From NCBI GenBank assembly GCA_964374035.1, contig CAYJWY010000001.1, positions 1 through 63,913 of the forward strand: DNA of 63,913 nucleotides, written 5' to 3'. The notes below the pieces were generated by a model, which ran no database searches, had not been told where the DNA came from, and saw nothing but the letters and a program-made list of their open reading frames with translations. Below, piece by piece: positions 30,762-45,197 of this stretch (within the stretch, counting starts at the first letter, position 1; every line of letters begins with the position of its first letter). Source of the DNA: an uncultured Gammaproteobacteria bacterium (lineage in GTDB: Bacteria; Patescibacteriota; Patescibacteriia; UBA9934; GWF2-40-263). A program made the translations under genes and the position numbers.

Positions 30762-32071
30762 AGAAGGGCCTGAAATCTGTTTGCATCTTCGCGATGTACA
30801 AAAAAATCCGTGAATCGAAGTTTCTCGTTATATTTTTTGAGCAGGTCAGAGTACTCGAAAATCGGGATATACGCAATGCTCTTGAGAGTCTTCTTGGCCA
30901 CATAAATCGTCGTTGCTTGCTCAGACGATTGTCCGCTGAATAACGAAAGTCGATTGCTCGCGCTGTGCGTGAACCACTTGATCGAGGCGTTGTTGCACGT
31001 CGACTTCAACAATTGCAACGTTTTAACGTCTTCTGATTTGTCGTCGTGGAGTCTAAGCACGCGCTTGGCCGCGATGCGATGCATGAGATGGTGTGACCAA
31101 TACGACGCGGGATGTTCGGCGGCGGCAAACAATTGCTCGATCACCGCGCCGTCTCTGAGTTTTGTATACGCGTAGGGATCCGTTGGGATGTGCAGGGTAA
31201 TTTCCTTCGATCTCATCGCTTCTTCCAGGTAATGCGTGAAGCCGGCTTTTGTTTTGTGAAAATAAACCTGATCGATCATGTGATAACGCGCAAGCAACAT
31301 ATCCTCAAGCGCACGCACGCCATTTTCTGAAATCGTTAACAACAATTCACGGTCGCGCTCAGCAAGCGACAACGAGGAGATCAACCAATCAAGATCGTAC
31401 TGTCCGTAAGCGACGCCACAAAAATAGCTGTCACGCAAAAGATAATCCATGCGATCGCAATCGACCTCGCCGGAGATGTGCGCTTTGAGAATGCTGTGGA
31501 GAAAGGCGAAGCGTTCGTTTGTGAATGTGATCTCGCGATGAATCAGCGCACAGATGTCTTGCGCGAACTGTCGGTCGAAGAGTCCTTGCTCGCTGAGAGT
31601 TTGAATCAACAGAACGCTGTAGTCCTCGTGCACGGCCTGTCGATCAGGTCGAAAATCCGACGAAGTCTTGGCGAGGTTGGATGTTGTTTTCCACCACGAC
31701 CAGTCGAGGGGAAGTTCGTCGACGCGCGGAAAGACGACTTCAGACGCGTGCGAGAACGGGCCGTGGCCGAGATCGTGAAGCAAGCCGGCAATGCGCACGC
31801 GCTGTCGCAGTTGCTCGATCTCGTCGAACGAAAGTCGCTCTTGAACGATCGACGACGATGCAATGATGCGTGCAAAAAGTCGACCCGCAACATGCATGGC
31901 GCCAAGGGCGTGTGAGAAACGGTCGTGGACGGCGCCGGGATAGACGTAGGCTTGCGTGAACCCGAGTTGGGAAATAAAACGAAGGCGCTGTACAAACGGA
32001 TGATCGATGATCGAGCGTTCAAATTCGTTGAACGTGATGCGCTTGTGAATGGGATCGCGAAGTTCATACAT
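30758..32071 (-). CDS. HD-domain phosphohydrolase (dNTP triphosphohydrolase-like)
   Basis: VHDRFSHALGAMHVA...LLHDLGHGPFSH...DCDRMDYLLRDSYFCG. Confidence 0.8.
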   Translation of the reverse strand: MYELRDPIHKRITFNEFERSIIDHPFVQRLRFISQLGFTQAYVYPGAVHDRFSHALGAMHVAGRLFARIIASSSIVQERLSFDEIEQLRQRVRIAGLLHDLGHGPFSHASEVVFPRVDELPLDWSWWKTTSNLAKTSSDFRPDRQAVHEDYSVLLIQTLSEQGLFDRQFAQDICALIHREITFTNERFAFLHSILKAHISGEVDCDRMDYLLRDSYFCGVAYGQYDLDWLISSLSLAERDRELLLTISENGVRALEDMLLARYHMIDQVYFHKTKAGFTHYLEEAMRSKEITLHIPTDPYAYTKLRDGAVIEQLFAAAEHPASYWSHHLMHRIAAKRVLRLHDDKSEDVKTLQLLKSTCNNASIKWFTHSASNRLSLFSGQSSEQATTIYVAKKTLKSIAYIPIFEYSDLLKKYNEKLRFTDFFVHREDANRFQALL

Positions 32072-32099
32072 ACCTGCGCATCATAGCGATCCGATCGTC

Positions 32100-32858
32100 T
32101 CAAAGCAACACAAGAATCAAGACACCCAGAACGACTCGAAGAAGAGCAATTTCCCTGTATGTGTTCTTTTCAAGAAATTTAAGAAAAAGCCGAATCGTAC
32201 CTAGGGCGGTGACAAAGGCCACGACAAAACCCACGATGAGCGCAATTGGATCAATCATGGAAGGACGACGGATAACTTCCACAAGATTGAAAAGCCCGCC
32301 GGCCGCGATTGTTGGAATGCCCAGGAGGAACGAGAACTTCGCAGCCGTTTGGCGTGAGAGTCCGCCGAAAAGTCCTGCGGTAATCGTGATCCCTGAACGT
32401 GATGTTCCGGGAATAAGAGCGATTGCTTGGGCAAGGCCGATCAGCATCGCACGTTTCCAGCCAACCTTCGTGACATCGTCGCTCAAAGGCTTCGCATAGC
32501 GATCCGCGACAAATAAGACAAGGCCCCAGACGACAAACGACCAGCCCACGACCTGAGCGGAACGAAACTCAACGTGTGTCCCGTTCACGAGAATCAATCC
32601 AACCAGAACGGCTGGGATTGTCGCAAAAAAAATCCACCATGCAATCGAACGCCACTGTTTCAACTCAGGCCAAAGCGCGATCACAATCGCTGTGAGTGTC
32701 GCCAGATGGAGCAATGCATCAAAAGCCAAATCTTGAGGCTCCCAGCCCAGCACCTGCGGAACCAGGATAAGAAACCCCGAACTTGAAATCGGTAAAAACT
32801 CGGTCAGACCCTGAACAAAACCGAGGATTGCCGCTTGGAGAATCGGCATACTAATCAA
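32100..32858 (-). CDS. uppP: undecaprenyl-diphosphate phosphatase
   Basis: GLTEFLPISSSGFLIL and PGTSRSGITI are BacA/UppP signatures. Confidence 0.9.
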   Translation of the reverse strand: MISMPILQAAILGFVQGLTEFLPISSSGFLILVPQVLGWEPQDLAFDALLHLATLTAIVIALWPELKQWRSIAWWIFFATIPAVLVGLILVNGTHVEFRSAQVVGWSFVVWGLVLFVADRYAKPLSDDVTKVGWKRAMLIGLAQAIALIPGTSRSGITITAGLFGGLSRQTAAKFSFLLGIPTIAAGGLFNLVEVIRRPSMIDPIALIVGFVVAFVTALGTIRLFLKFLEKNTYREIALLRVVLGVLILVLL

Positions 32859-34746
32859 AACTCACGGTTTGACCCGGCTGGATCGTTCCTGATTTAGGTT
32901 CAGGAGCCTCGGGAATGACGGACGCGGTTGAAGATACTGGCGGTTGAGAACCCTGAGCTGAAGCGGGCTTTGGCTCATGTTCTTTTTTCTTTGTCTGTGG
33001 TTTCTCCATCTGGCTCTTGAGCACAATTTTTAACGGCGGGCGCGGCTGGGTAATGGTTTCGATCCGTTCAACTGGTTTTGTGATCGCAACTGGCTTTGGT
33101 TCCGGTACTTTTAACTCAGTGAGCGAAATCGTTTTGTTCTGTGTTCTTGGCTTTTCAATCATCTTGCCATCAGAAGGTTTTGCTGTTGTTGCACTCTTGG
33201 CAACGGCTAAACCTGGCGAACCAACCTTTGGGGGCACTTTATAATCTTTTTTAGAACCGGCCGACTTTCGCTCCTCACGCACAATCTCAATACAATCTTC
33301 GCAATAGATGGGGCGCGAACGATCAAGCTCAACTGGAAGCACCATGTCTTTATTACAGCGCGAACAGTTGTACTCAAACTTTGGCTTCTTTGAATCCTTG
33401 GATGCTTTCTTTTTTTCCTCCGCTTTCTCAAGCATCTGCGCATCGGAGACGTCCCCCATTCCACTCCACGTCATAATCTTTTCCTCGACCTCACTACGAC
33501 CGACGGCGTAGGCTTTTCGTGAGTTTTCAATCACCTGAGAAGACGAGTGGGTGATTTGCGCAATGGGTGGAAGTGTTGCCGCGGAAAATGGCTGACTCGT
33601 GACACCATCGATCAACAGTTTCAAGTAGATGTTAAATTTGGGAAGGTTGATAATGTCCTCCGGCAAGAAACGTGGCGCAAACTCGGTTTCCATATAGGTA
33701 GCATCCGGCGAACCGACGCGAAACGTGATGATCGTTCCAACGTTACCAAACACCGCCTCGCGCACTTCATCCGTGAGCTGGGCGATGTATTGATGCGCCA
33801 TGGTCAGGCACAAACGATACTTGCGCGCCTCGGACAAAATACCGGCGAAGGATTCCACGGCGAAGTTCTGAAACTCGTCAACGTACAGATAAAAATCTTT
33901 TCGCTCGTTTTCAGGAATATCAACACGTTCCATCGCCGAAAGCTGAATTTTGGTGATCAACAGTCCACCCAACAATCGCGAATTATCTTCTCCGATTCGT
34001 CCCTTGGAAAGATTGACAATGAAGATTTGTTCGTTATCCATAATCTCACGAACACGAATCGTCGATTTCACTTGTGCAACGATGTTACGAATCACGGCGG
34101 CGGACAAAAACTGTCCGATCTTGTTTTGAATCGGCGCCACAGCTTCTTGGGCATATTTTTCGTTGTAGGATGCAAACTCAGACAACCAAAACTGTCGCAC
34201 AACGGGATCTTTCACATTGCTCACAATCTGCTTACGATACTCCGCGTCTGAAAGCATGCGATTGATTCCAAGCAGTGTTTGACCTGGATTTGCCAGCAAC
34301 GCGAGAATGGTATTATTTAAAATGTATTCCATGCGCGACGACCACATATTCTCCCAAATTTTCTTGAAGACACCCATCATTCCGGACGCGACAAGATGTT
34401 GATGACGTTCACTCACGGCTTCAAGGATATTAAACCCGACAGGAAAATCCATGTCCGCCGGATTGAAATAGACGACATCCTTTTGTCGCCAGCTTGGAAT
34501 GAAATCGATGAGTTTTTCGGCTGTATCTCCATGCGGATCAACATAACAACATCCATGCCCGGCGTAGATGTCGGTCAAAATAAAATTCTCGAGCAAGGTT
34601 GTCTTGCCCATACCGGTCTTGCCAATGACGTAAATGTGTCGGCGACGGTCATCGGTCTTGACACCGAACTTTGTCATCGTGTTACGAAAATTCGTCTTGG
34701 CAAAATAGTTGACCTCATGTTCGTGATCGTGGTTGTACAAGGGCAT
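32851..34746 (-). CDS. VirD4/TraD-like (type IV coupling protein-like) P-loop ATPase with a C-terminal zinc ribbon and a Lys/Pro-rich tail
   Basis: Walker A is VIGKTGMGKTT and Walker B is FYLYVDEFQNF. The zinc ribbon is CSRCNKDMVLPVELDRSRPIYCEDC, followed by about 170 aa of low-complexity K/P/E sequence. Confidence 0.7.
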   Translation of the reverse strand: MPLYNHDHEHEVNYFAKTNFRNTMTKFGVKTDDRRRHIYVIGKTGMGKTTLLENFILTDIYAGHGCCYVDPHGDTAEKLIDFIPSWRQKDVVYFNPADMDFPVGFNILEAVSERHQHLVASGMMGVFKKIWENMWSSRMEYILNNTILALLANPGQTLLGINRMLSDAEYRKQIVSNVKDPVVRQFWLSEFASYNEKYAQEAVAPIQNKIGQFLSAAVIRNIVAQVKSTIRVREIMDNEQIFIVNLSKGRIGEDNSRLLGGLLITKIQLSAMERVDIPENERKDFYLYVDEFQNFAVESFAGILSEARKYRLCLTMAHQYIAQLTDEVREAVFGNVGTIITFRVGSPDATYMETEFAPRFLPEDIINLPKFNIYLKLLIDGVTSQPFSAATLPPIAQITHSSSQVIENSRKAYAVGRSEVEEKIMTWSGMGDVSDAQMLEKAEEKKKASKDSKKPKFEYNCSRCNKDMVLPVELDRSRPIYCEDCIEIVREERKSAGSKKDYKVPPKVGSPGLAVAKSATTAKPSDGKMIEKPRTQNKTISLTELKVPEPKPVAITKPVERIETITQPRPPLKIVLKSQMEKPQTKKKEHEPKPASAQGSQPPVSSTASVIPEAPEPKSGTIQPGQTVSFD

Positions 34747-34748
34747 AG

Positions 34749-36335
34749 TTACGTGGGTAGATTTGGAGGAACAAACGTTTCATCTTGTTGTGTCGGCGAT
34801 GTAAGCGTTGGCAAAAATTCTGCCGGAGGCATGGGTGGTTCACTCGCCGGAACTTCTGCTTTGGGTACATCCATCGTGAGAAGAGGCGTGTGTGACACTT
34901 CTTGCTCTTGCGTTGCAAATGACGCAAGAGCGTTGTCTTCAAACGTAAACGGAAGTCCAAACGGCGGCTCGGCTCGTTTTGATTCGGATTTTTTGATGAG
35001 TGGAGCCTTGATACTGATTGTGGGGAAATGCCACAACGTTGCAAGTTCCTCCGCATTCAAAAACTTTGGTTGTGCGCCAACAGCAAAGCTACGCCGACAA
35101 TACGCACCCATGAGCGTCTTTTGTTTTTTTGTATACGACCAACGCATCCAAAAATAATCGTCCTTTGGAACCTGTGGAATAAAAAGAGTGAATTTGTTGA
35201 ACTGGAGATGAGAAAACTGATTCAAGATTCCCTTCACAATGCCCGTGCGTTCAACTTTTGCATACACCTCCTTCTTGGCGATGTAAAGAATACGAATTTT
35301 TGTTCCAAGCCCAACCTTCGAAGTCTTACGAAAAATGGCTTTTGCTTCCTCAATGTCTCGAACCGAAAGTTTAAACGCTTTAAACGGATCCTCCTCGGCT
35401 TTTGCGTGAGCTCCAAATAAGGTTCCTAAAATACTGAAATTTGTGGCATGCTCAATGAGCCCACTGGGGATATCCAGAATGGGTGTTAACGCAGACTCGA
35501 TAAAACCTTTCTTTGATTTTTCCGGAATGCCGTAAATTTCGTTAATCCGCTTCACACCGTCCTTGATCCAATCGTTGGATGATGGTTGAACAAGATACTG
35601 AATCCAAAAATGTTCACCCGGGCGCATCTTCGCCATTTGTTCGAGCGTAAAGCCAAGCGGATCCTTGATTTCCTGTGTCATGGAGTCTTCAAAATCGACG
35701 TAGGTGCGAATCGGATGATAGGAAGGTCCATCAAGCGTCATCTCTGATCCCCACATTTCATACGTATTGTTTGGGAACTCCTTGGGAAACTTTGTTGTGT
35801 AATCCTCCACCTCGGAAATTTCCGCATCGGGATAGTGCGCGTAAATACCGGCCTCGAGAATGTCTCGGAAGCGTGTCTGGCAACGTATCAAAAATTGAAT
35901 GTAGCCTTCAGAAGAAATCATTTCAAAAGAAAATGTGGGATGAAATCTTCCTAAAATCCATTTCTCTTTCCAGGTCAGTGAAGATTTACATCCATAAATG
36001 GTGGCAAACAAATTCTCAAGCGCTTTTGGGGTTTGTTCGGTCATGGATGGAACATCGATCGCAAGCAGGATATGTTTGAGCTTTCCGGCAGTTTTTCCTT
36101 GTTGATAATTCACCCATATCTGAATGAAGCCCCAAATAAACGTGATCGCAATCGGAATCCAACCAAACCAAACAAGGATGTCAAAAAGTACAATGTCCAG
36201 TGGACGCGAAAAGAATCCCAAATTTACGAGACTCGACGAACTGTTTGCAGTCTCTGCGACAATCGGAATGCCAAGAAGTGAAAACATAGTGACCCAAACA
36301 CTATACCAAAAAAACAACGCAACGTCTCGAGTCAT
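34749..36335 (-). CDS. large membrane protein partnered with the VirD4-like ATPase
   Basis: Two or three N-terminal TM helices and a soluble domain of about 400 aa. It abuts secF (0-nt gap) and the ATPase (2-nt gap). Confidence 0.55.
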   Translation of the reverse strand: MTRDVALFFWYSVWVTMFSLLGIPIVAETANSSSSLVNLGFFSRPLDIVLFDILVWFGWIPIAITFIWGFIQIWVNYQQGKTAGKLKHILLAIDVPSMTEQTPKALENLFATIYGCKSSLTWKEKWILGRFHPTFSFEMISSEGYIQFLIRCQTRFRDILEAGIYAHYPDAEISEVEDYTTKFPKEFPNNTYEMWGSEMTLDGPSYHPIRTYVDFEDSMTQEIKDPLGFTLEQMAKMRPGEHFWIQYLVQPSSNDWIKDGVKRINEIYGIPEKSKKGFIESALTPILDIPSGLIEHATNFSILGTLFGAHAKAEEDPFKAFKLSVRDIEEAKAIFRKTSKVGLGTKIRILYIAKKEVYAKVERTGIVKGILNQFSHLQFNKFTLFIPQVPKDDYFWMRWSYTKKQKTLMGAYCRRSFAVGAQPKFLNAEELATLWHFPTISIKAPLIKKSESKRAEPPFGLPFTFEDNALASFATQEQEVSHTPLLTMDVPKAEVPASEPPMPPAEFLPTLTSPTQQDETFVPPNLPT

Positions 36336-37235
36336 CTACGTTTGGTTTGAATGCTTCTTCCACAAGTTCCACGAAACAAGCAACGGACTTGCAAAGAAAA
36401 TCGACGAGTAGGTTCCAACCGCAATGCCGATGATCAAGACCAGCGCGAATGGGCGCGTACTTTCACCTCCGAAAAGGAAAACCGCCAGCAGGGCAAGGAT
36501 GGTTGTCAGGCTGGTGCTTAGCGATCGTGTAAGCGTTTGATGAATGCTCAATTCCACGGTTTCTTCAAAATGCTCTTCTGCCTGTCGAATCAAATTCTCT
36601 CGTGTGCGATCGAACAGAATAACCGTGTCGTTAATCGAATAACCCAGTATGGTTAAAATGGCCGCGACGAACGCTGTGCCAATCTCCCAGTTGAAAAGAT
36701 AACCAAAGAGCGCAATAAATCCGACGGTTACCACAATGTCGTGGATGGAACACAAAATGGTAATGACGCCGTATTTCCAAGATTCCACTGACGAGGTGAC
36801 CTTTCGAAAGGCCCAGGCAATGTACAGACCAATGAGCACAAGGGTGATGAGCACACCAAGCATCGCTGTCTTTCGAAGTTCGTTTCCCACAACCGGACCA
36901 ATCGAGTCGAACTGTCGCTCTTCTACAACTCCTAATGTTTGTAATGCTTCAAGAATCTTCTGATGTTCTTCTTCTGTAAGATTTTTTGTGCGAAGCAGAA
37001 AGCCGTTCTGTTCTGTATCCTGAAAAGAAACCTCTGTGAAGCCAGCGGCTTCAAGTGTTGAGCGCAAATCCGTGCTCTCAATGGTTTGATCAAAACGAAC
37101 AGACAGGAGGCTTCCACCGGTAAAATCAATACCAAACCTGAGCCCGAAGATCATCATAAAGATAAGACTACCGGCAATCAACACTGTCGAGATCGCGTAC
37201 CAAATCCTTCGATGTTTGATGAAATGTACCTTCAT
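36336..37235 (-). CDS. secF: protein translocase subunit SecF
   Basis: GIDFTGGSLL, six TM helices and SINDTVILFDRTREN. Confidence 0.9.
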   Translation of the reverse strand: MKVHFIKHRRIWYAISTVLIAGSLIFMMIFGLRFGIDFTGGSLLSVRFDQTIESTDLRSTLEAAGFTEVSFQDTEQNGFLLRTKNLTEEEHQKILEALQTLGVVEERQFDSIGPVVGNELRKTAMLGVLITLVLIGLYIAWAFRKVTSSVESWKYGVITILCSIHDIVVTVGFIALFGYLFNWEIGTAFVAAILTILGYSINDTVILFDRTRENLIRQAEEHFEETVELSIHQTLTRSLSTSLTTILALLAVFLFGGESTRPFALVLIIGIAVGTYSSIFFASPLLVSWNLWKKHSNQT

Positions 37236-37239
37236 ACGG

Positions 37240-39288
37240 CTACGACTTTTTTACATTAAAGAGAGAGGGCTTTTGGAACATCTTCCATTGCAACAAGCTC
37301 ATTGAGTACACACGCGCAACCGTGATTGCAGAGAACATGCTTAACAACACACCGATGGAAAGCGTCAACGCAAAGCCACGGATAAAACTTGAGCTAAACC
37401 AATACAAGACAACAGCGGCAATCAGCGTGGTGAGATTTCCGTCGCGGATGGCGTTCCATGCACGACGAAAAGCTTCGTCAAGCGCGGAGAGATATCCGCG
37501 ACCCGCACTCAATTCTTCTTTGAAGCGTTCAATAATAAGAACGTTTGCGTCTACAGCAATACCAAGCGACAAAACAAATCCGGCAATGCCTGCAAGTGTT
37601 ATCGTGACGTCAAACAAGCGATACATGGCCAGGTTAAGTGACGCGAAAAAGAATAACGCAATGACGGCAATGAATCCTGCAAATCGATATACGACGACCA
37701 TGTAAATCGCAACAAACAAAAATCCGTAAAGCGCGGCGGTAACACTCTGTTGCAAAGAGACGATGCCGAGTGTTGGTCCGATACGTTGCTGGGAGAGAAG
37801 ATTCACAGGAACAGGAAGCGCACCCGCGTTGAGACGCTGAGCAAGGAGCTTGGATTCTTCGATCGTGAAGTTGCCGGTAATCACAGCCTGTCCACCGTAA
37901 ATCGCGGTTTGGACAACCGGAGCCGAGATGACTTGGCCATCGAGAAATATACCGATTGGCTGTCCGACAAGAGATGTGGTCAGGGCACCGAATAAATCGC
38001 CGCCCTCTTTATCAAACTGAATGGAAACAAGCGGAGCGTTCGTATTGGGATCAAATTGAACGGTTGCACTCTGCAAATGCTTTCCGGAAAGCTCTGTATT
38101 CACCCAAGGTGAGCTTGGCGGCAGGATGTCGAACTCATTGGAACGTGGCAGGACGATGCGTTTGATATCGTATGTCACGGCATCACGCTCGTCAGATTTG
38201 TAAATGATGTGATAACCGAATTCGGTTTCGATCGAGGTCGTTGTGATCTCACCCTTAACCAATGCGGCGGCGGCCAAACGAAACGCATCAACGTATCGAC
38301 TTCCCATCGCCCATCCAAGATCACCACCGTTTGTCACGGCGGAAGGATCGTTTGATTTCTCTTTTGCAATCTGTGCAAAGTTTTCAGGCGTGACTTCCTT
38401 TAAGATCGTTTGGATTTGCAGAGATGCATCGAGATCGGAAATGGGATTTTCACACCCCGTCTTTCCTTCAAAACAAATCAGAATGTGAGAAAGTTTCATT
38501 TCTTTTTCAATCTTCTGGTCGTCGAGTCGTAAGATGTTAAATCCGTCGGACGTTTCAACGATCGTGCGGTTCACCTGACCTTTTTTCAACCTAGACGTTT
38601 TGATTGAATCCACAAACGGGGATCCTGCTTCGTCAGCTGTGACACCTTTTAAGATGCCGCGCTGTTCGTTCTGCGGTTCGATGGTGTTTTCCGCGAGCAA
38701 TGCGTCGAAATCCTCACCCTGTAACGCGCGAGCCAGAACAGCATCGGCTTGCTTACGCTCCGCAAGATTGCGCGCAGAAAGATCAGCCTTCTCTTCTGCG
38801 GTAAGATCACGTTCTAATTGTTGACCTTGCTTCTTAAATTCCAGCACCGGTGTTTCTCCAATTTGCGCGATGGCGTCAGATACATTCAACACACCCGCGA
38901 GTTCAACAATCACTCGATAGGTTCCACCCGTTGAGGTCGTCTGCACAATTGGTTCAGAAACACCAAAAGCATTCACGCGACGTTCGATGACATCGCGAAC
39001 ACCCTCGAGGGCTTCACCTTTTTGTGTTTCTGGAATCTGTTTCATGTCGGCCTCATAAATGAGATGTGTGCCACCTTGAAGATCTAGCCCCAAACGAAAC
39101 GGACGCTCTGGAAGTTTCACCATTTGTGGGATGGCAAGGCGATCCACGACCTGATTCCATACGCCTGGAAAGTCATAGACAAATAAACCTAGGGTCGAAA
39201 ACAGAAAAAAAATAGCCAGAACTCGCGCGGTCCAGGGCTTGTGTTCCTTCTTTTTTTGAGCCTTTTTCTTTACTTTCCATGTTTGCAT
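37240..39288 (-). CDS. secD: protein translocase subunit SecD with an inserted parvulin-type PPIase module
   Basis: The SecD framing is LGLDLQGGTHLIYEA, RVNAFGVSEPIVQ and the C-terminal six-TM SecD/F core. Residues ~155-395 are extra and contain HILI...GGDLGW...FGYHIIYK. Confidence 0.85.
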   Translation of the reverse strand: MQTWKVKKKAQKKKEHKPWTARVLAIFFLFSTLGLFVYDFPGVWNQVVDRLAIPQMVKLPERPFRLGLDLQGGTHLIYEADMKQIPETQKGEALEGVRDVIERRVNAFGVSEPIVQTTSTGGTYRVIVELAGVLNVSDAIAQIGETPVLEFKKQGQQLERDLTAEEKADLSARNLAERKQADAVLARALQGEDFDALLAENTIEPQNEQRGILKGVTADEAGSPFVDSIKTSRLKKGQVNRTIVETSDGFNILRLDDQKIEKEMKLSHILICFEGKTGCENPISDLDASLQIQTILKEVTPENFAQIAKEKSNDPSAVTNGGDLGWAMGSRYVDAFRLAAAALVKGEITTTSIETEFGYHIIYKSDERDAVTYDIKRIVLPRSNEFDILPPSSPWVNTELSGKHLQSATVQFDPNTNAPLVSIQFDKEGGDLFGALTTSLVGQPIGIFLDGQVISAPVVQTAIYGGQAVITGNFTIEESKLLAQRLNAGALPVPVNLLSQQRIGPTLGIVSLQQSVTAALYGFLFVAIYMVVVYRFAGFIAVIALFFFASLNLAMYRLFDVTITLAGIAGFVLSLGIAVDANVLIIERFKEELSAGRGYLSALDEAFRRAWNAIRDGNLTTLIAAVVLYWFSSSFIRGFALTLSIGVLLSMFSAITVARVYSMSLLQWKMFQKPSLFNVKKS
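38191..38499 (-). other. parvulin (PpiC/PrsA/SurA-type) rotamase domain embedded in SecD
   Basis: KLSHILICFEG...FAQIAKEKSNDPSAVTNGGDLGWAMGSRYVDAF...GEITTTSIETEFGYHIIYKSDE matches the rotamase consensus position by position. Confidence 0.8.
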
Positions 39289-39359
39289 ACAAGATGGTCA
39301 ATCAATCAAAAAAACGCGGTTAGTGTAAGCATTCGAGGCAATTCTCGCAAGTGGACAGC

Positions 39360-39656
39360 TTACTCACCCAATTCTTCCATCTGCACGTCACCCTGGATGA
39401 TGTTTAAAAATACCTCGCGCATTTTCGACGATTCTGGTCTGGCTGTTATCTCTCGCTCGATCCGATCGGCCTCTTGTTTGGAAGGATATATAACAATCTC
39501 CTCAATAAACATAGTCCCACCTATCTTTCGAGTCGGACTCTGTTGAAACGAGACATCTTTATAGGCCGCATACATCCGATTCGATTCACGCGACAATATT
39601 AACCAACCTGCATAGTCCTTTTCCAAAATGTGATAACGAAAAAACTTTGTAAGCAT
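39360..39656 (-). CDS. hypothetical protein (98 aa)
   Basis: The ORF lies downstream of the RAYT-like gene. The tracked N-terminal extension is translation of the REP hairpins, so the ATG at 39656 is preferred. Confidence 0.35.
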   Translation of the reverse strand: MLTKFFRYHILEKDYAGWLILSRESNRMYAAYKDVSFQQSPTRKIGGTMFIEEIVIYPSKQEADRIEREITARPESSKMREVFLNIIQGDVQMEELGE

Positions 39657-39660
39657 AGCA

Positions 39661-39710
39661 ATATCGCTACCCGGTAGCGAGTAGATCTTATCGCTACCGG
39701 GTAGCGATAT
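39661..39710. repeat. pair of REP-like hairpins (inverted pair) 3' of the RAYT-like gene
   Basis: atatcgctacCCGgtagcga (39661..39680) and its exact reverse complement tcgctacCGGgtagcgatat (39691..39710), separated by 10 nt. Confidence 0.85.
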
Positions 39711-40389
39711 CTTCAATTAATTCTGGGTATGAGTTGCGTACTGACCACAATTGAAGTGCTTGCGTGTAGTCATGAGTCGACCTAAACATCTTGTTGGCAA
39801 GTTCAGCATTAACAATTGGCAACGTTTGACCGAAACCGCGAAAAAACGTGTGGCTTGACCACGGATAATGATCCATCATGTTAAGTGCGTCAAACCAGTT
39901 CGTAACAATGCCATCTCTCCAGGAATGCCCAGTTAGATCTAAAATATTCAGGTGAATATACAAGATGATATATTCAAAATATGCCTCGTTATTTATATGT
40001 TTAGCGTAAAATCTTCCCTCAAACATGGTTCCCTTTCGATCATTGGCGTGATTGTAAGACCAACTATAGGCCTTATTTACTTTGTGGAGAAATTTAGAAA
40101 TGCCTCCGTCCTGTTCTTGACGTAAAAGAAAGTGATAATGATTTGGTAATAATGTCCAGCTAACAATTGATACAAATTGCTCTCGATCAATATCGAAAAG
40201 ATGGTGGCCTGTAATTTTTGCGATTTTCTCGAATGGGTCACCTGAGTGACGATACTTTGAATCATTAAAAAGATAGAGTGATTCGACAAAGCGTTGGTAA
40301 TCGCCGCTACAGTCAAAAATGCGTCGCTTGTCCACGCCACGCAGATACACATGGTAATACTCACCATTTACGAAAGAAATCTCTCTCAT
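39694..40389 (-). mobile_element. IS200/IS605-like Y1 (HUH) transposase, REP-associated (RAYT-like)
   Basis: The HUH motif is LLPNHYHFLL. The C-terminal region FEGRFYAKHI...YFEYIILYIHLN contains the candidate catalytic Tyr. No tnpB is present, and the gene is flanked on both sides by paired hairpins. Confidence 0.7.
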
Positions 40390-40410
40390 AATAAAATTTC
40401 TATCTCCACC

Positions 40411-40460
40411 CCGCTACCCGGTAGCGATATGAATGTTATTCGCTACCGGGTAGCGATATT
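40411..40460. repeat. pair of REP-like hairpins 5' of the RAYT-like gene
   Basis: ccgctacCCGgtagcgatat (40411..40430) and tcgctacCGGgtagcgatatt (40440..40460). The core is the same as at 39661..39710. Confidence 0.85.
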
Positions 40461-40527
40461 TTAATTTCACATGATTTGACTGTACTGGATAACTATAGCA
40501 CTTCTGCGTGGGATCTTTAAGCTGAAA

Positions 40528-40536
40528 TGGTATAAT
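40528..40536 (+). promoter_or_regulatory. extended -10 promoter element (TGgTATAAT) for the NRAMP gene
   Basis: TGGTATAAT ends 15 nt before the ATG at 40552. This implies a very short leader without a Shine-Dalgarno sequence. Confidence 0.4.
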
Positions 40537-40551
40537 CAGAAACATCGCTCT

Positions 40552-41808
40552 ATGAAAAGAAGAACGTTTTTCAAACGCCTTGGCCCGGGATTCATCACTG
40601 GCGCCGCTGATGATGATCCGTCGGGAATCGCAACCTATTCGCAAACCGGTGTGCAGTTTGGATATGGACAGCTGTGGACATCTCTGTTTTCGTTTCCGTT
40701 CATGGCCGCTGTGCAAGAAATGTGTGGACGTATTGGTATGGTGACGGGTAATGGGCTGTCCGGTGTTCTTAGAAAACATTATCCTCGAAGCATTCTTGGC
40801 GTCGCCGTCATCCTTCTTGTGAGCGCAAACACCATCAATATCGGCGCTAATCTTGGAGCGATGGCCTCAGCGGTTCAGCTCGTCTTTGGCCTTCCGTTTG
40901 TCTTCTTACTCTTTGTGCTCACCGTGATCACGATCCTTCTTCAAGTCTTCATTTCTTATGAAAAATATGCAGGGTTCCTCAAATACCTCACGCTTTCTCT
41001 GTTCGCTTACATCATCGTTGCGCTCATGGTGAAACAGGATTGGAATCTGATCCTGACATCAACCTTTCTTCCCTCGTTTTCGTGGAGCAAGGACTACATG
41101 CTCAATATCGTCGCGATCTTTGGAACAACCATCTCGCCCTACCTTTTTTTCTGGCAGGCCGACCAAGAAGTCGAGCAAGAAATTGAAAAACATCAACTCA
41201 CCGGCATCGGCGAAGGTCGACCGAAGATCAACATGATCGACATCAAGAACATGCGCGCCGACACATTCTTTGGGATGTTCTTCTCAAACCTCGTGATGTT
41301 TTTCATTATGATCACCGCCGCGTCAACACTTCGATCAGCAGGAATCACCCAAATCGACACAGCGGCTCAGGCCGCTGAGGCCTTGCGACCACTGGCTGGC
41401 AATTTCAGCTTTTTGCTCTTCTCATTGGGGATTCTTGGAACCGGTCTGCTTGCGGTACCCATTCTTGCAGGTTCTGCGTCGTATGCTGTTTCAGAAGGCC
41501 TTGGGTGGAAAAGCGGCCTCAGTCGTACATTCAAGGACGCTCACGGATTTTACGGTGTCATCGCACTTGCCACGCTCGTCGGACTTCTTGTGAATTTCAT
41601 CGGCGTGCCACCGTTCAAAATGTTGTACTACACCGCCGTATTCAACGGCCTTGCCGCACCTGGGCTCCTCGTCCTGATTCTTCTGATTTCGAATAACAAA
41701 AAAATCATGGGCAAACACACAAACGGCCCAATCTCAAACATCTTGGGCATCGTCATTACGACAATCATGTTTGTCGCAGGCGTGATGTTGCTTGTGTGGT
41801 CGTCATAA
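40552..41808 (+). CDS. mntH: NRAMP-family divalent metal transporter
   Basis: GPGFITGAADDDPSGIATYSQTG is the NRAMP signature, and there are about 11 TM helices. Confidence 0.8.
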   Translation: MKRRTFFKRLGPGFITGAADDDPSGIATYSQTGVQFGYGQLWTSLFSFPFMAAVQEMCGRIGMVTGNGLSGVLRKHYPRSILGVAVILLVSANTINIGANLGAMASAVQLVFGLPFVFLLFVLTVITILLQVFISYEKYAGFLKYLTLSLFAYIIVALMVKQDWNLILTSTFLPSFSWSKDYMLNIVAIFGTTISPYLFFWQADQEVEQEIEKHQLTGIGEGRPKINMIDIKNMRADTFFGMFFSNLVMFFIMITAASTLRSAGITQIDTAAQAAEALRPLAGNFSFLLFSLGILGTGLLAVPILAGSASYAVSEGLGWKSGLSRTFKDAHGFYGVIALATLVGLLVNFIGVPPFKMLYYTAVFNGLAAPGLLVLILLISNNKKIMGKHTNGPISNILGIVITTIMFVAGVMLLVWSS

Positions 41809-41852
41809 CGACGGCATCCGAACTGTCACAGATACGATCGTTTGTGAGATGG

Positions 41853-42236
41853 TCAACGGATCTGGGTGGTAATCGATAGCAATGGTGTCTCGATAAATTG
41901 ATAGACGATCGTCACCTGCACAAGAAGCAGTGCCCAAACAACAATCTGAAACGAGAGCTTTCTACGTTTGTGTCGAAGCACGTAGATGGCCGCAAGCATG
42001 CCAAGCGAACCGCCAAAAAACGTCATGATATAGAGGGATCGCTCTGAGATGCGTCTGTCCCCTGTTCTCGCCTGCACTTTGTCGACAAGCATGACGAGAA
42101 AGGTTGCCATTGTGAGGGCGATGAACACACACAACCAAAACGGGAAGTCGACGAACCAAACAAATCCAATAGACAAGACAATCGCGATGATGGCCCAGAG
42201 GAGGAGGCCTTGTTGGTCTGCTTTTCTAAGTAACAT
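41853..42236 (-). CDS. DUF1294 membrane protein
   Basis: MLVDKVQARTGDRRISERSLYIMTFFGGSLGMLAAIYVLRHKRRKLSF matches the DUF1294 pattern. Confidence 0.7.
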   Translation of the reverse strand: MLLRKADQQGLLLWAIIAIVLSIGFVWFVDFPFWLCVFIALTMATFLVMLVDKVQARTGDRRISERSLYIMTFFGGSLGMLAAIYVLRHKRRKLSFQIVVWALLLVQVTIVYQFIETPLLSITTQIR

Positions 42237-42278
42237 TGGTGAAAGTATATCACAAAACCGCCTGAGGGCGGTTTTGAT

Positions 42279-45113
42279 TTAAGCGCCGTGGCATTTTTTG
42301 AATTTTTTTCCACTTCCGCATGGGCATGGTTCGTTGCGACCCGCCTTCGCTGGGGCTTTGGCGGGCGAGCCTGCTTTTTCGCTTACCGCACCTCCCTTGA
42401 ACCCCCCTTGAGAAAGCTGGAGCTTCGTTTCTCCCTTGTCCGCTCCAGCCATCACAACGCCAGTTCGACTCAAAAGAGACGTGTTTAACTCCGCCTGGAC
42501 GTTCATATCCACGGCGTGATGGGCGTACTTGAAGAATGTGTAGGCGATTTCTTGGTTGATGGAACTGAGGAGCGTCTGGAAGATATTGAAGCCTTCGCGT
42601 TTGTATTCGATGAGTGGATCGCGTTGGCCGTAACCTTGTAGGCCAATGCCGGTGCGAAGGGCGCGCATCGCCTCGAGGTGGTCGATCCAGAGCATGTCGA
42701 TCGCGCGCAGGATAACGGCTTTTTCGACGAGATGGAGGTCTTTGATTTCTGGGAGGGACTGCGTGAGTTTGTCGTATTGCTCCGTGATCACAGACATGAT
42801 CGCTTCGATCAGCTGTGTACGACCCTGCGCAAGCGACTGTTTGTCGTGTGAAACGTTGATCGAAAGTTCTTCAATCTGTTTGCGTTGTTGCTGAGAAAAT
42901 GCAACGATCGTCTGCATGGTCTGAAGAATTTCTGCGATGTTCCAGGTTGTGTTCACGGTTGATGATGTTGTGTCATTTTTGTGTTCAACAAATTCACCGG
43001 TGTGAAACAGAACAACTTGTTCAACTTCTCCTTCGATGATATCGAGGATGCGCATGCGTAAATCCTCGGGGTCATCCGTAAAGGTTGTTAAAACTTCAAG
43101 ACGCCGCGCGTAGATCACTTCGCGGTGTTTGTTCAAGACATCATCGTATTCCAAGATGTGTTTGCGCGAATCGAAGTGGTGGCCTTCCACGCGCATCTGC
43201 GCCTTTTCGACGGCTCCTGTAATCATCTTATTTTCGATCGGCATCTCGTCGGGAATCCCCAGGCGATCCATGAGGCCGCGTGTGCGATCGGAGCCGAAGA
43301 TACGCATGAGGTCGTCCTCCATCGAGATGTAAAACTGCGTGAGACCCGGATCACCTTGTCGACCGGAGCGGCCGCGAAGCTGGTTGTCGATGCGGCGTGA
43401 TTCGTGACGCTCCGTGCCGATCACATAGAGTCCGCCGAGGTCCTTCACGCGTTTCTCTTCCTCGGGATTCGTCGGATTTCCACCCAGCTTAATATCAACA
43501 CCGCGGCCTGCCATGTTGGTTGCAAGCGTCACGGCACCAACACGGCCCGCTTGAGCGATGATCTCGGCCTCGCGTTCATGATTTTTCGCATTCAAAATTT
43601 CATGTCGCACACCGGCGTTGTCAAGCAACGTATGCAGGAGTTCGTTCTTTTCAACCGACGCCGTACCAATCAAAACCGGCTGACCTCGCTCACTGGCCGC
43701 TTTCACTTCTTCGATCACTGAGAGGTATTTCCCTTTCTCATTTTTAAAAATCTTATCGCCTCGATCTATGCGCGTGACCGGTTGGTTCGTGGGAATTTCA
43801 ACGACTTCGAGCTGATAAATCTTGGAAAACTCCTCGGCTTCTGTCGATGCCGTACCCGTCATGCCGGCGAGCTTTTCGTACATCCGAAACAAATTTTGAA
43901 ACGTAATGGTCCCGAGTGTTTGGCTCTCGCGTTGGATTTCCACCTTTTCTTTTGCTTCGATCGCTTGGTGAATGCCTTCGGAGAATCGTCGACCAGGCAT
44001 AAGACGGCCCGTAAACTCATCGACGATGATCACCTCACCATCTTTGACGATATAGTGGACGTCCTTGTGATAGTTCGCGCGTGCGCGAAGCGCTGTGTCT
44101 GCGTAGCGCTGGTACTGGCCTTGTTCGATCGCGTACAGGTTGTCGATACCCAGAGCTTTCTCGATGCGATCGATACCGGATTCCGACAGCGTCGCTGTTC
44201 GCATCTTCTCATCGACATTGAAGTCTTCATGTTCTTTGAGCGTATTTGCGATGTCGGCAAATCGATAATAGAGATCATTCGATTTTTCCGCCGGCGCGGA
44301 AATAATGAGCGGTGTACGAGCCTCGTCGATCAAGATGGAATCGATTTCGTCGATGATGGCGTATGGCATACCACGCATCACGGTTTGATCAACGTCGGAC
44401 GCCATGTTGTCACGCAAGTAATCGAAACCGAACTGATTGTTGGTGCCATACGTAATGTCAGCGGCGAAGGATTCGCGACGACTGCAAGGTCGAAGAAATT
44501 CGTCGTGGATTTGGAACGATTCGGTTCCTAGTTCCTCTTCGTTTGCAGTCGCGACCCCCTCTAACTCCCCCTTGGCAAGGGGGAGAACAGGCTTCGTGTG
44601 ACTTGTTCGATACGATGGATCGTAAAGATAACTATCGAACTGTTGAATACAACCTACGCTTAGGCCGAGGAAATGAAAAATCTGTCCCATCCAGACGCAA
44701 TCGCGCTTTGCCAAATAATCGTTTACGGTGACGAGGTGTGCGCCTTTGGCGCTCAGAGCATTTGTATAAAGGGCAAGCGTCGAAGTCAACGTCTTTCCTT
44801 CGCCCGTACGCATTTCCGCGATCTGTCCTCGATGCAAAATGAGTCCGCCGATCAATTGAACATCGAAGTGTCGCTGATTGATTGTTCGTTTGGCGGCTTC
44901 ACGCACAACCGCGAAGGCTTCGTGAAGAACAGCGTCAACGGTCTCCCCTGCTTCGAGCCGTTTTTTAAACTCCAAGGTTTTCGCCTTGAGTTCATCGTCG
45001 ACGAGCTTGGAAATGTTTGGTTCAAACGCATTGATCTTTGAAACTTCCTTTTGAAGTTCGGTTAACAACCGCTTGTTTGGATCGCCAAAGAGAATCTTTA
45101 GAACCTTGCTCAT
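42279..45113 (-). CDS. secA: preprotein translocase ATPase SecA with an enlarged loop before the PPXD
   Basis: MRTGEGKTLT, DITYGTNNQFGFDYLRDNM, DEIDSILIDEARTPLIIS, TNMAGRGVDI and the C-terminal zinc finger CPCGSGKKFKKCHG. Confidence 0.95.
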   Translation of the reverse strand: MSKVLKILFGDPNKRLLTELQKEVSKINAFEPNISKLVDDELKAKTLEFKKRLEAGETVDAVLHEAFAVVREAAKRTINQRHFDVQLIGGLILHRGQIAEMRTGEGKTLTSTLALYTNALSAKGAHLVTVNDYLAKRDCVWMGQIFHFLGLSVGCIQQFDSYLYDPSYRTSHTKPVLPLAKGELEGVATANEEELGTESFQIHDEFLRPCSRRESFAADITYGTNNQFGFDYLRDNMASDVDQTVMRGMPYAIIDEIDSILIDEARTPLIISAPAEKSNDLYYRFADIANTLKEHEDFNVDEKMRTATLSESGIDRIEKALGIDNLYAIEQGQYQRYADTALRARANYHKDVHYIVKDGEVIIVDEFTGRLMPGRRFSEGIHQAIEAKEKVEIQRESQTLGTITFQNLFRMYEKLAGMTGTASTEAEEFSKIYQLEVVEIPTNQPVTRIDRGDKIFKNEKGKYLSVIEEVKAASERGQPVLIGTASVEKNELLHTLLDNAGVRHEILNAKNHEREAEIIAQAGRVGAVTLATNMAGRGVDIKLGGNPTNPEEEKRVKDLGGLYVIGTERHESRRIDNQLRGRSGRQGDPGLTQFYISMEDDLMRIFGSDRTRGLMDRLGIPDEMPIENKMITGAVEKAQMRVEGHHFDSRKHILEYDDVLNKHREVIYARRLEVLTTFTDDPEDLRMRILDIIEGEVEQVVLFHTGEFVEHKNDTTSSTVNTTWNIAEILQTMQTIVAFSQQQRKQIEELSINVSHDKQSLAQGRTQLIEAIMSVITEQYDKLTQSLPEIKDLHLVEKAVILRAIDMLWIDHLEAMRALRTGIGLQGYGQRDPLIEYKREGFNIFQTLLSSINQEIAYTFFKYAHHAVDMNVQAELNTSLLSRTGVVMAGADKGETKLQLSQGGFKGGAVSEKAGSPAKAPAKAGRNEPCPCGSGKKFKKCHGA
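44565..44585. repeat. 21-nt palindrome inside secA
   Basis: ctcccccttg-g-caagggggag, translated as PLAKGE. A second 8-bp stem, gttcgata/tatcgaac, lies at 44605..44640. Confidence 0.8.
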
Positions 45114-45177: not shown

Positions 45178-45197
45178 TGTATGTTCAGCTGTGTGAC

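What the first reader, a model, noticed from the sequence alone, without database searches (positions are those of the whole stretch)
38104..38826. SecD with an inserted PrsA/SurA-like parvulin PPIase module
Residues ~155-395 of SecD interrupt the first extracytoplasmic (P1-type) domain. The second half of the insert is an unmistakable parvulin rotamase domain (HILI...FAQIAKEKSNDPSAVTNGGDLGW...FGYHIIYK). The first half (ADAVLARALQGEDFDALLAE...GQVNRTIVETSDGFNILRLDD) looks like a degenerate second parvulin-like domain. This would physically fuse a secretion-coupled foldase to the SecDF motor. In model bacteria those functions are carried by separate proteins (PrsA, PpiD, SurA). I do not recall this architecture being characterised.
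Basis: partly seen in the sequence, partly recalled or inferred. Interest (0 to 1): 0.62.

Follow-up and report, generated by a model that had tools for sequence, protein, structure and literature searches.

The report
SecD with built-in tandem parvulin foldase
The protein-export motor subunit SecD of this candidate-phyla-radiation bacterium carries a conserved SurA/PrsA-type prolyl-isomerase module of about 240 residues spliced into the hinge of its outward-facing domain, so a folding helper that is a separate protein in model bacteria is here part of the secretion machine.

Summary
The ORF at 37240..39288 (-) is a full SecD of 682 aa, and secF follows it 4 nt downstream. Residues 153-393 (window 38110..38832) are an insert between the N-terminal part of the P1 base and the P1 head. 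The second half of the insert is a canonical parvulin (Pfam Rotamase E 7e-22; H268, D314 and H360 are kept). The first half is a degenerate parvulin: scanned alone it scores 30.7 bits against Pfam Rotamase, and hhalign against the second half gives 90% probability.

It is not a chimera. Contigs from four independent sequencing runs span both junctions with no differences, and all 120 best database relatives share the architecture.

The architecture is widespread in Patescibacteria. It was found in 33 GTDB species genomes titled Uhr-, Magasanik- and Falkowbacteria, Parcubacteria, Peribacteria and Gracilibacteria. It also occurs as variants: a single circularly permuted parvulin, longer inserts, and single-chain SecDF.

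The AlphaFold models (pLDDT 86 and 90) and Foldseek place the insert closest to the SurA P1-P2 tandem and to the PrsA PPIase domain. The strand pattern suggests that the active domain is nested inside the degenerate one.

The most likely function is a translocon-tethered foldase/chaperone acting on chains that leave SecYEG. No paper describing it turned up in the searches made of the held library. I rate it a new variant of known kinds, of moderate to good interest.

The parts
37240..39288 (-). secD ORF, 682 aa, with the parvulin insert
   Evidence: ORF list. TIGR01129 scores 348.7 bits, above its cutoff of 244.4. The N-terminus M1 Q2 W4 K5 K7 is nearly invariant in 109 relatives, so the start codon is right.
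39172..39234 (-). TM1 (residues 19-39). It follows a strongly basic N-terminus (MQTWKVKKKAQKKKEHK), which puts the N-terminus inside and P1 outside.
   Evidence: AF2 helix 19-39. Sequence. The SecD topology comes from the solved SecDF structures 3aqp and 5xan.
38833..39111 (-). N-terminal part of the P1 base (GG motif and SecD_1st; residues 60-152), ending in the strand VLEFK
   Evidence: Pfam Sec_GG at 62-82 and SecD_1st at 96-154. It aligns to T. thermophilus SecDF residues 28-116.
38110..38832 (-). The whole insert, residues 153-393 (241 aa). Plain CPR SecDs have only about 6-40 residues at this site.
   Evidence: MAFFT alignment with plain SecDs. Translation. Insert-only AF2 model, pLDDT 89.9 and pTM 0.73.
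38515..38811 (-). parv1: a degenerate parvulin-like domain (residues 160-258). It starts with a long helix, 164-189. It has no N-terminal beta1, and the catalytic His position is Asn251 (GFNIL).
   Evidence: Pfam Rotamase 30.7 bits, profile positions 17-97. hhalign against parv2 gives 90% probability. The SurA profile PRK10770 matches 177-370 against profile positions 195-386. Foldseek gives SurA P1 (2pv1) TMt 0.80.
38188..38505 (-). parv2: a canonical parvulin PPIase domain (residues 262-367) with H268, D314, L324, F336 and H360
   Evidence: Pfam Rotamase E 6.9e-22. Foldseek gives S. aureus PrsA PPIase (2jzv) TMt 0.83 and SurA P2 (4g2p) TMt 0.84, rmsd 2.2. Residue conservation.
38452..38475 (-). 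Cys272...Cys279 (ICFEGKTGC). The pair is invariant in 109 Uhrbacteria-type relatives and may form an extracytoplasmic disulfide in the beta1-alpha1 loop.
   Evidence: Invariant columns. Translation. The pair is absent in other lineages. The disulfide itself is an inference.
38146..38178 (-). Tail strand YDIKRIVLP (residues 371-381). It continues the last strand of parv2 and is inferred to supply the missing beta1 of parv1. It aligns with the 'ASHILF' beta1 motif of the single-domain permuted variants.
   Evidence: Both AF2 models show continuous strands 249-271 and 358-380. Alignment with type-b proteins. The de-permutation test on P0148. The 3D contacts could not be inspected.
37804..38109 (-). 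P1 head subdomain (residues 394-495), starting at PWVNTELSGK
   Evidence: Pfam SecDF_P1_head E 2.1e-31. It aligns to T. thermophilus SecDF from residue 159.
37291..37800 (-). TM2-TM6 of SecD (residues 497-666), including D580, which aligns with T. thermophilus D340
   Evidence: Pfam SecD_SecF_C. phmmer alignment to 3aqp. D580 and N582 are invariant.
36336..37235 (-). secF, 299 aa, 4 nt downstream of secD; the partner subunit
   Evidence: Pfam SecD_SecF_C E 3.3e-55 and Sec_GG. The secD-secF adjacency is kept in 27 of 33 related loci; in five of them SecF is part of one SecDF chain.

Best explanation
This is a genuine, vertically conserved secD gene of a Patescibacteria (Uhrbacteria-like) bacterium. 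The extracytoplasmic P1 domain of its product carries a module of about 240 residues and two domains of the parvulin family, inserted at the hinge between the P1 base and the P1 head. The inner domain (parv2) keeps the parvulin active-site residues. The outer domain (parv1) is degenerate and probably acts as scaffold and stalk.

Inferred mechanism: SecDF sits next to the SecYEG exit, and its P1 head captures the emerging chain and pulls on it, driven by the proton-motive force. The parvulin module, tethered by two short flexible linkers next to the head, would bind the same unfolded chain as it leaves the channel and catalyse cis/trans isomerisation of prolyl bonds, or at least hold the chain. 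That would make it a built-in equivalent of PrsA, PpiD or SurA.

Shown here: domain identities, insertion site, conservation of the catalytic residues, wide distribution, and integrity of the assembly. Inferred: PPIase or chaperone activity, the position of the module relative to SecY, and the nested topology.
For: Domain calls: Pfam and NCBIfam.

Fold: the full model has pLDDT 85.9 and the insert model 89.9. For the insert, Foldseek puts SurA 1m5y on top, aligned over 220 columns that span both parvulins, and the PrsA and SurA-P2 PPIase domains reach TM 0.83-0.84.

Insertion site: between LEFK and PWxNTxLSGK.

Active site under selection: in 109 close relatives H268 is kept in 107, H360 in 109, F336 in 108 and L324 in 107, and position 314 is Asp in 74, Gly in 22 and a gap in 13. 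In 104 diverse insert-bearing SecDs, H360 is kept in 99 and position 314 is D, E or C in 88.

SecD core intact: the TM4 Asp (D580, aligned with T. thermophilus D340) is invariant, and secF is adjacent.

Not an artefact: four independent runs give identical contigs across both junctions. All 120 best relatives have Rotamase plus SecD domains. Of the 150 best 50%-identity representatives, 83 carry the insert. The same holds for 33 GTDB species genomes.

Functional precedent: E. coli SurA binds the holotranslocon, and AlphaFold places the SurA P1 and P2 parvulin domains on the SecDF P1 head (PMC9987972). PpiD-YfgM associates with SecYEG (PMC9643414). PrsA-like PPIase lipoproteins form a dome with the Sec translocon and crosslink to SecD in M. 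pneumoniae (10.1101/2025.04.25.650208; 10.1101/2024.09.05.611430).
Against: No activity data exist. The pTM of the full model is only 0.50, so the orientation of the module relative to the head, and hence to SecY, is not defined, and I could not inspect coordinates or PAE. In 13 of 109 close relatives the loop carrying Asp314 is deleted, and in 22 it is Gly, so catalysis may be dispensable in part of the family. Parvulin domains without activity that act only as chaperone parts are well known (SurA P1, PpiD). Some related SecDs lack the insert, so it is not essential for SecD function as such.
Confidence: 0.7

Rival explanations
1. The module is a substrate-holding or structural extension of the P1 head with no catalytic role. 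It would be a chaperone or stalk only, like the inactive parvulin domains of PpiD and SurA P1. It would enlarge the polypeptide-binding surface, or space the head away from the membrane and wall.
For: parv1 has lost the His pair: position 251 is N, S or E and position 377 is mostly R. In 13 of 109 relatives the Asp314 loop of parv2 is deleted and in 22 it is Gly. One natural variant (P0124) keeps only parv1.
Against: The two His residues, F336, L324 and the acidic or Cys residue at 314 are kept across very divergent lineages, down to 34-40% identity. That is hard to explain without selection on the active site. The single-domain variants also keep both His residues despite the circular permutation.
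Confidence: 0.22
2. The ORF is an assembly or gene-calling artefact that joins secD to a separate parvulin gene.
For: None found.
Against: Contigs assembled independently from 4 runs span 38100 and 38830 with 0 differences. The insert is in frame inside one SecD HMM match. The same architecture is seen in more than 120 protein clusters from NCBI, JGI, ENA and Logan and in 33 GTDB genomes. AF2 folds it confidently.
Confidence: 0.01
3. The module has been recruited for a job other than general folding of Sec substrates. Examples would be docking SecDF to a lineage-specific surface machine (type IV pili, or the T4SS-like genes next door) or to the cell wall, or regulating head movement.
For: There is conserved synteny of secD-secF with a 528-aa membrane protein and a VirD4-like ATPase. 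The module is grafted on one of the hinge connections whose bending drives the SecDF cycle.
Against: Synteny alone does not indicate interaction. Conservation of the active site points to a conventional parvulin substrate, a prolyl peptide. Peribacteria and Gracilibacteria loci with the insert did not show that synteny.
Confidence: 0.07

Closest known systems
SecD / SecDF (T. thermophilus 3AQP, D. radiodurans 5XAN; TIGR01129)
   Same: TM1, P1 base, P1 head and TM2-6. GG motif. TM4 Asp. secF adjacent. HMM score above the equivalog-domain cutoff.
   Different: A tandem-parvulin insert of about 240 residues sits at the base-head hinge, where T. thermophilus has about 42 residues and plain CPR SecDs have 6-40.
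SurA (E. coli, 1M5Y): the P1-P2 tandem parvulin part
   Same: The insert is collinear with SurA P1 plus P2 (NCBIfam PRK10770 profile positions 195-386; Foldseek top hit over 220 columns). The first domain is inactive-like and the second active-like. AlphaFold models in PMC9987972 place these very domains on the SecDF P1 head.
   Different: There is no SurA N/C chaperone core. The score is 65.7 bits against a cutoff of 394. The host is thought to have no outer membrane or BAM (general knowledge, not tested here). parv1 lacks its N-terminal strand, and the domains appear nested.
PrsA (Bacillus and Staphylococcus lipoprotein foldase)
   Same: An extracytoplasmic, membrane-tethered parvulin that acts on Sec substrates in a cell with a single membrane. 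The PPIase domain superposes (2jzv, TMt 0.83).
   Different: No lipobox, no NC dimerisation or chaperone domain. The tether is SecD itself. NCBIfam PrsA models score 35-42 bits against cutoffs of 343-361.
PpiD-YfgM at SecYEG (E. coli)
   Same: A parvulin-containing chaperone anchored in the membrane at the translocon exit (PMC9643414). Foldseek hit 8zht.
   Different: PpiD is a separate protein with one TM segment, an inactive parvulin and a large chaperone domain. The score here is 52.5 bits against a cutoff of 493.
M. pneumoniae Sec-translocon 'dome' (Mdp444/436/489, PrsA-like PPIase lipoproteins)
   Same: A genome-reduced bacterium with one membrane that couples the Sec translocon, SecDF included, near-obligately to parvulin-type foldases (10.1101/2025.04.25.650208; 10.1101/2024.09.05.611430).
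   Different: There the foldases are separate large lipoproteins that form a chamber. Here a small module is covalently inserted in SecD.

Membership tests
SecD (TIGR01129 / Pfam SecD_1st + SecDF_P1_head + SecD_SecF_C) | HMM score above the curated cutoff over the full length | tested here: met
   348.7 bits against a cutoff of 244.4, residues 66-660 matched to profile positions 1-395 of 397. All three Pfam domains are above their gathering scores.
SecD (TIGR01129 / Pfam SecD_1st + SecDF_P1_head + SecD_SecF_C) | Fold and topology: TM1, periplasmic P1 (base and head), then five TM helices | tested here: met
   AF2 model pLDDT 85.9. Foldseek gives 5xan, 5yhf and 3aqp at E 1e-21 to 1e-23.
SecD (TIGR01129 / Pfam SecD_1st + SecDF_P1_head + SecD_SecF_C) | Conserved TM4 Asp of the proton path, and a SecF partner | tested here: met
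   D580 aligns with T. thermophilus D340 and is invariant. secF lies 4 nt downstream. The role of D340 is taken from established knowledge of the published SecDF structures, recalled from memory.
SecD (TIGR01129 / Pfam SecD_1st + SecDF_P1_head + SecD_SecF_C) | PMF-dependent stimulation of protein export | not testable with these tools
   Needs genetics or biochemistry.
Parvulin / PpiC-type PPIase domain (PF00639, PF13616) | HMM above the gathering score | tested here: met
   parv2: 78.7 bits against 21.7. parv1 alone: 30.7 bits against 21.7, but only profile positions 17-97.
Parvulin / PpiC-type PPIase domain (PF00639, PF13616) | Beta-alpha3-beta-alpha-beta2 fold | tested here: met
   Foldseek: 2jzv TMt 0.83, 4g2p TMt 0.84, Pin1 PPIase domains about 0.77 and 2pv1 0.80.
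Parvulin / PpiC-type PPIase domain (PF00639, PF13616) | Active-site residues (two His on beta1 and beta4; Cys or Asp in the S-x-[CD]-P loop; hydrophobic proline pocket) | tested here: met
   parv2 has H268, D314, L324, Y332, F336 and H360, all conserved. The mapping onto Pin1 H59, C113, L122, M130, F134 and H157 rests on my memory of the Pin1 sequence. parv1 does not meet this feature (N251, R377).
Parvulin / PpiC-type PPIase domain (PF00639, PF13616) | Measured prolyl isomerase activity | not testable with these tools
   Needs an enzyme assay.
SurA (NF008038) | Full-length equivalog score; N-terminal and C-terminal chaperone core flanking two parvulins | tested here: not met
   65.7 bits against a cutoff of 394. 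Only profile positions 195-386 (the parvulin pair) are matched. No SurA_N hit.
PrsA (NF002827, NF002846, NF002824) | Lipoprotein with an NC domain around one parvulin; equivalog score | tested here: not met
   35-42 bits against cutoffs of 343-361, and only the parvulin part is matched. There is no lipobox; the domain is internal to SecD.
PpiD (NF008054) | An N-terminal TM segment, a large chaperone domain and an inactive parvulin | tested here: not met
   52.5 bits against a cutoff of 493, and only residues 301-366 are matched.

The most novel reading that the evidence does not exclude
A large part of the Patescibacteria has hard-wired a SurA-like parvulin pair into the moving hinge of SecD. 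That would make a translocon with a covalently built-in foldase. It would also be natural 'Rosetta-stone' evidence that the SecDF P1 head and parvulin chaperones (SurA, PpiD, PrsA) work as one physical unit at the SecY exit in bacteria generally. In addition, the module would be an apparently undescribed parvulin topology: an active domain nested in a circularly permuted, degenerate one, with single permuted domains in sister lineages.
Probability: 0.5. Interest if true: 0.7.

Novelty: new variant of a known kind. Interest (0 to 1): 0.6.

Why it matters
How secreted chains are handed from SecYEG-SecDF to extracytoplasmic folding factors is still debated. The evidence so far is low-resolution EM and AlphaFold docking for SurA, crosslinks for PpiD, and in-cell tomography for Mycoplasma. 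A natural covalent fusion of the two partners at the base-head hinge of P1, just ahead of the P1 head, conserved over deep lineages, is independent evolutionary evidence for that hand-over. It also gives a compact single-chain object (P1 plus parvulins, about 440 aa, soluble domain) for structural and biochemical work. It bears on how ultra-small, genome-reduced bacteria economise on envelope biogenesis factors. It may also explain KEGG-style 'PrsA' calls in CPR genomes. The apparent circular permutation and nesting of the parvulin fold is of interest to people who study protein evolution.

Tried and rejected
- Chimera or mis-assembly was rejected.
- I looked for a second, stand-alone parvulin gene in the window by searching all 643 stop-to-stop ORFs of at least 50 aa with my own HMMs. 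Only SecD matched.
- De-permuting the window's own parv1 (tail strand moved to the front) did not extend the Pfam match (29.5 against 30.7 bits). The tail is too degenerate for a sequence test. The same test worked for type b protein P0148 (69.4 to 78.7 bits; profile coverage 17-96 to 1-96).
- The NJ tree of the SecD core is too star-like to settle between a single gain and repeated gain or loss. I use it only as a hint that losses and deletions occurred inside the Uhrbacteria-type clade.
- The Rfam scan of the window gave 0 families, and the promoter and terminator scan around secD showed nothing above the shuffled expectation.
The position of the module relative to the head, the Cys272-Cys279 distance and the strand pairing are therefore inferred from DSSP strings only.
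- Literature: searches combining SecD or SecDF with parvulin, PPIase domain, PpiC, rotamase, PrsA, peptidyl-prolyl, Patescibacteria, Parcubacteria or candidate phyla radiation, and a search for 'circularly permuted' plus 'parvulin', found no description of this architecture. The library does not hold subscription-only papers.
Full report
**1. What is in the sequence**

The finding lies inside one ORF on the minus strand, 37240..39288, 682 aa. A 299-aa ORF follows 4 nt downstream (36336..37235).

- Pfam on the large ORF gives Sec_GG (62-82), SecD_1st (96-154), Rotamase (268-364; E 6.9e-22, 78.7 bits against a gathering score of 21.7), Rotamase_3 (257-365), SecDF_P1_head (398-493, profile positions 19-114) and SecD_SecF_C (497-659).
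- The downstream ORF is SecF (SecD_SecF_C, E 3.3e-55).
- NCBIfam TIGR01129 (secD) matches residues 66-660 as one stretch at 348.7 bits (cutoff 244.4). The parvulin is therefore internal to one SecD match.
- The SurA model PRK10770 matches residues 177-370 to its profile positions 195-386, the part that holds SurA's two parvulin domains. The score of 65.7 bits is far below the SurA cutoff of 394.

**2. Where the insert sits**

phmmer against solved structures aligns residues 60-152 with T. thermophilus SecDF 28-116 and residues 399-659 with 159-419. A MAFFT alignment with plain SecDs from the same protein neighbourhood shows the shortest ones running straight from '...LEFK' into 'F/W-x-x-T-x-L-[ST]-G-[KR]' after only about 6 residues.

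The insert is thus residues 153-393 (window 38110..38832). It lies exactly at the connection between the N-terminal part of the P1 base and the first strand of the P1 head. The N-terminus is very basic and is followed by a hydrophobic helix (19-39), so P1 and the insert are extracytoplasmic, as in all SecDs. The SecD core looks functional: D580 aligns with T. thermophilus D340 and is invariant in 109 relatives.

**3. The two halves of the insert**

The second half (parv2, about 262-367) is a canonical parvulin. The first half (parv1, about 160-258), scanned alone, still passes Pfam's Rotamase threshold (30.7 bits, E 6.6e-7), but only over profile positions 17-97, so it lacks the N-terminal beta1 strand. 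Profile-profile comparison of the two halves, built from 109 relatives, gives 90% probability and E 1.5e-6 over 61 columns. In that alignment GFNIL falls opposite GYHII.

In parv2 the residues that I map, from memory of the Pin1 sequence, to Pin1 H59, C113, L122, M130, F134 and H157 are H268, D314, L324, Y332, F336 and H360.

| Set of sequences | H268 | H360 | F336 | L324 | Position 314 |
|---|---|---|---|---|---|
| 109 close relatives | 107 | 109 | 108 | 107 | D in 74, G in 22, gap in 13 |
| 104 diverse insert-bearing SecDs (down to about 34% identity) | 78, plus 21 gaps (mostly permuted forms and fragments) | 99 | 96 | 98 | D, E or C in 88 |

**4. Structure**

AlphaFold2 with 109 homologues gives a mean pLDDT of 85.9 for the whole protein (pTM 0.50). 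The insert scores 84-95, with weaker linkers at about 141-160 and 381-400. The insert alone (residues 146-404, 25 sequences) gives pLDDT 89.9 and pTM 0.73.

- Foldseek of the full model finds SecDF (5xan, 5yhf, 3aqp; E 1e-21 to 1e-23) and also SurA 1m5y over about 250 columns.
- Foldseek of the insert puts SurA 1m5y first (220 columns, both parvulins).
- Single-domain superpositions reach TMt 0.83 (S. aureus PrsA PPIase, 2jzv), 0.84 (SurA P2, 4g2p) and 0.80 (SurA P1, 2pv1).

In both models DSSP shows two very long strands, 249-271 and 358-380, that run through both domains. In a parvulin, beta1 and beta4 are neighbouring antiparallel strands. A continuous ribbon therefore means that 262-271 pairs with 358-367 (the beta1 and beta4 of parv2) and that 249-258 pairs with 371-380. 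The tail strand 'YDIKRIVLP' would then supply the beta1 that parv1 lacks, which makes parv2 nested in a circularly permuted parv1. This is an inference, because I could not obtain coordinates.

Two independent observations support it:
- Sister SecDs with a single parvulin (P0140, P0145, P0148, P0153, P0155, P0157) have the order '...FG[YW]HIIKK - loop - [KH]ASHIL[FI]', with the hallmark beta1 motif after beta4. Moving that strand to the front in P0148 raises the Pfam Rotamase score from 69.4 to 78.7 bits and extends coverage from profile positions 17-96 to 1-96.
- One natural variant (P0124) lacks parv2 cleanly and keeps parv1 plus the tail.

**5. Not an artefact, and how widespread**

- Logan contigs of four runs from two studies cover 36900..39700. 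Separate contigs cross both 38100 and 38830 with zero differences.
- All 120 best hits among 5.8 billion proteins (55-74% identity, 658-738 aa) carry both Rotamase and SecD domains. Where named, they are 'SecD' of Candidatus Uhrbacteria or the Patescibacteria group.
- An exhaustive HMMER search with the P1 region gave 308 50%-identity representatives at E<=1e-30. Of the 150 listed, 83 combine SecD and parvulin domains and 67 are plain.

The insert-bearing proteins fall into four architectures:

| Type | Architecture | Length |
|---|---|---|
| a | double parvulin, as in this window | about 655-705 aa |
| b | single permuted parvulin | about 560-620 aa |
| c | single-chain SecDF with the insert | 1015-1119 aa |
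| d | longer inserts | about 775-830 aa |

A scan of one genome per GTDB species with a parvulin-to-head alignment found 33 species genomes with the fusion. Their titles are Uhrbacteria, Magasanikiibacteriota, Falkowbacteria, Parcubacteria group, Peribacteria or Peribacteraceae, and Gracilibacteria. Some MAGs are titled 'uncultured Gammaproteobacteria' or 'Binatia', yet their loci are syntenic with and 50-70% identical to this one, so those labels are probably wrong. The remaining 47 loci of that scan matched over the parvulin part only, with no P1 head. They come from genomes titled Proteobacteria, Bacteroidota and other phyla, so I take them to be stand-alone parvulin genes; their ORFs were not examined. 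I therefore saw the fusion only in Patescibacteria. A crude NJ tree of the SecD core suggests a deep all-insert clade plus a clade of Uhrbacteria type with occasional losses, but it is not decisive.

**6. Mechanism**

From established knowledge of SecDF (the 3AQP and 5XAN work), the P1 head binds the emerging preprotein and swings about the base-head hinge, driven by the proton-motive force. The module is tied by two short, low-confidence linkers to exactly that hinge. The most economical reading is a translocon-tethered foldase and holdase: parv2 catalyses prolyl isomerisation of, and binds, the chain leaving SecY, and parv1 with its long helix (164-189) serves as stalk and scaffold.

Three published systems make this plausible:
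- SurA binds the E. coli holotranslocon, and AlphaFold places its P1 and P2 parvulin domains on the SecDF P1 head (PMC9987972).
- PpiD-YfgM sits at SecYEG (PMC9643414).
- In the genome-reduced M. pneumoniae, PrsA-like PPIase lipoproteins form a dome with the Sec translocon, SecDF included, and crosslink to SecD (10.1101/2025.04.25.650208; 10.1101/2024.09.05.611430).

The CPR fusion is the covalent counterpart. The main rival is a non-catalytic chaperone or structural role. It draws support from the deleted or Gly-substituted Asp314 loop in about a third of close relatives, but the deep conservation of the His pair argues against it.

**7. Comparison and membership**

It is a member of SecD: score, fold, TM4 Asp and SecF partner are all met. 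It contains bona fide parvulin domains: score, fold and active-site residues are met for parv2, and score and fold only for parv1. It is not SurA, PrsA or PpiD: each equivalog score is far below its cutoff, and the defining chaperone cores or lipoprotein anchor are absent. It may nevertheless work like them.

**8. Novelty**

Full-text searches of the held library found no description of a SecD-parvulin fusion and none of a circularly permuted parvulin. Public annotations simply say 'SecD'. One CPR ecogenomics paper lists 'PrsA' as present in all CPR classes from automated annotation (PMC9166423); some of those calls may be these SecD-embedded domains, which I did not test. I rate the finding a new variant of known kinds, with interest 0.6.

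**9. Limits**

- There is no activity or expression evidence.
- Coordinates and PAE were not available.
- Only 64 kb of the genome was available, so the absence of stand-alone foldases is untested beyond the window.

Noticed in passing
window 32851..36335 (-), and L002, L003, L007, L013-L016, L020: Directly downstream of secF lie a 528-aa membrane protein with no Pfam hit (34749..36335) and a VirD4/TrwB-like type IV coupling ATPase (32851..34746). The order secA - secD - secF - 528-aa protein - VirD4-like is conserved in 9-14 of the related Patescibacteria loci. It may belong to the patescibacterial T4SS described in PMC12102498.
   Followed up: partly
window 39694..42236: Three genes sit between secA and secD here: an IS200-like Y1 transposase homologue (39694..40389, -; PF01797, E 6e-7), an Nramp transporter (40552..41808, +) and a DUF1294 protein (41853..42236, -). 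In relatives secA lies close upstream of secD without the first two, which suggests a local insertion.
   Followed up: partly
window 38452..38475 (residues 272 and 279): Two Cys residues in the beta1-alpha1 loop of parv2 (ICFEGKTGC) are invariant in all 109 Uhrbacteria-type relatives but absent in the other insert-bearing lineages. This may be a lineage-specific extracytoplasmic disulfide.
   Followed up: partly
alignment A1, residues 308-317 of the window protein: 13 of 109 close relatives have a clean deletion of the loop that carries the catalytic-position Asp314 ('...NFATIEGAQDLGW...'), and 22 have Gly there. PPIase chemistry may be relaxed in part of the family.
   Followed up: partly
proteins P0140, P0145, P0148, P0153, P0155, P0157; locus L028 5506..7203: These SecDs have a single parvulin that is circularly permuted, with beta1 'ASHILF' after beta4 'FGYHIIKK'. 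Their taxonomy could not be obtained. No paper mentioning circularly permuted parvulins was found.
   Followed up: partly
L001, L002, L006, L007, L012, L013, L017, L019-L021: These GTDB or ENA MAG records are titled 'uncultured Gammaproteobacteria bacterium' or 'Candidatus Binatia bacterium' yet carry loci close to Uhrbacteria in sequence (secD; in many also secA, secF and the VirD4-like gene). The taxon labels look wrong.
   Followed up: no
L022-L027, L029-L031 (Peribacteria and Gracilibacteria): In these lineages the parvulin-bearing SecD is either fused to SecF in one chain (1020-1124 aa) or has a longer insert of about 350 aa with extra segments before and after the parvulin. In L022 and L030 a separate upstream ORF gives a weak P1-head-like hit.
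   Followed up: no
window 1..63913: No Rfam family reached its gathering score anywhere in the 64-kb window, not even a tRNA.
   Followed up: no
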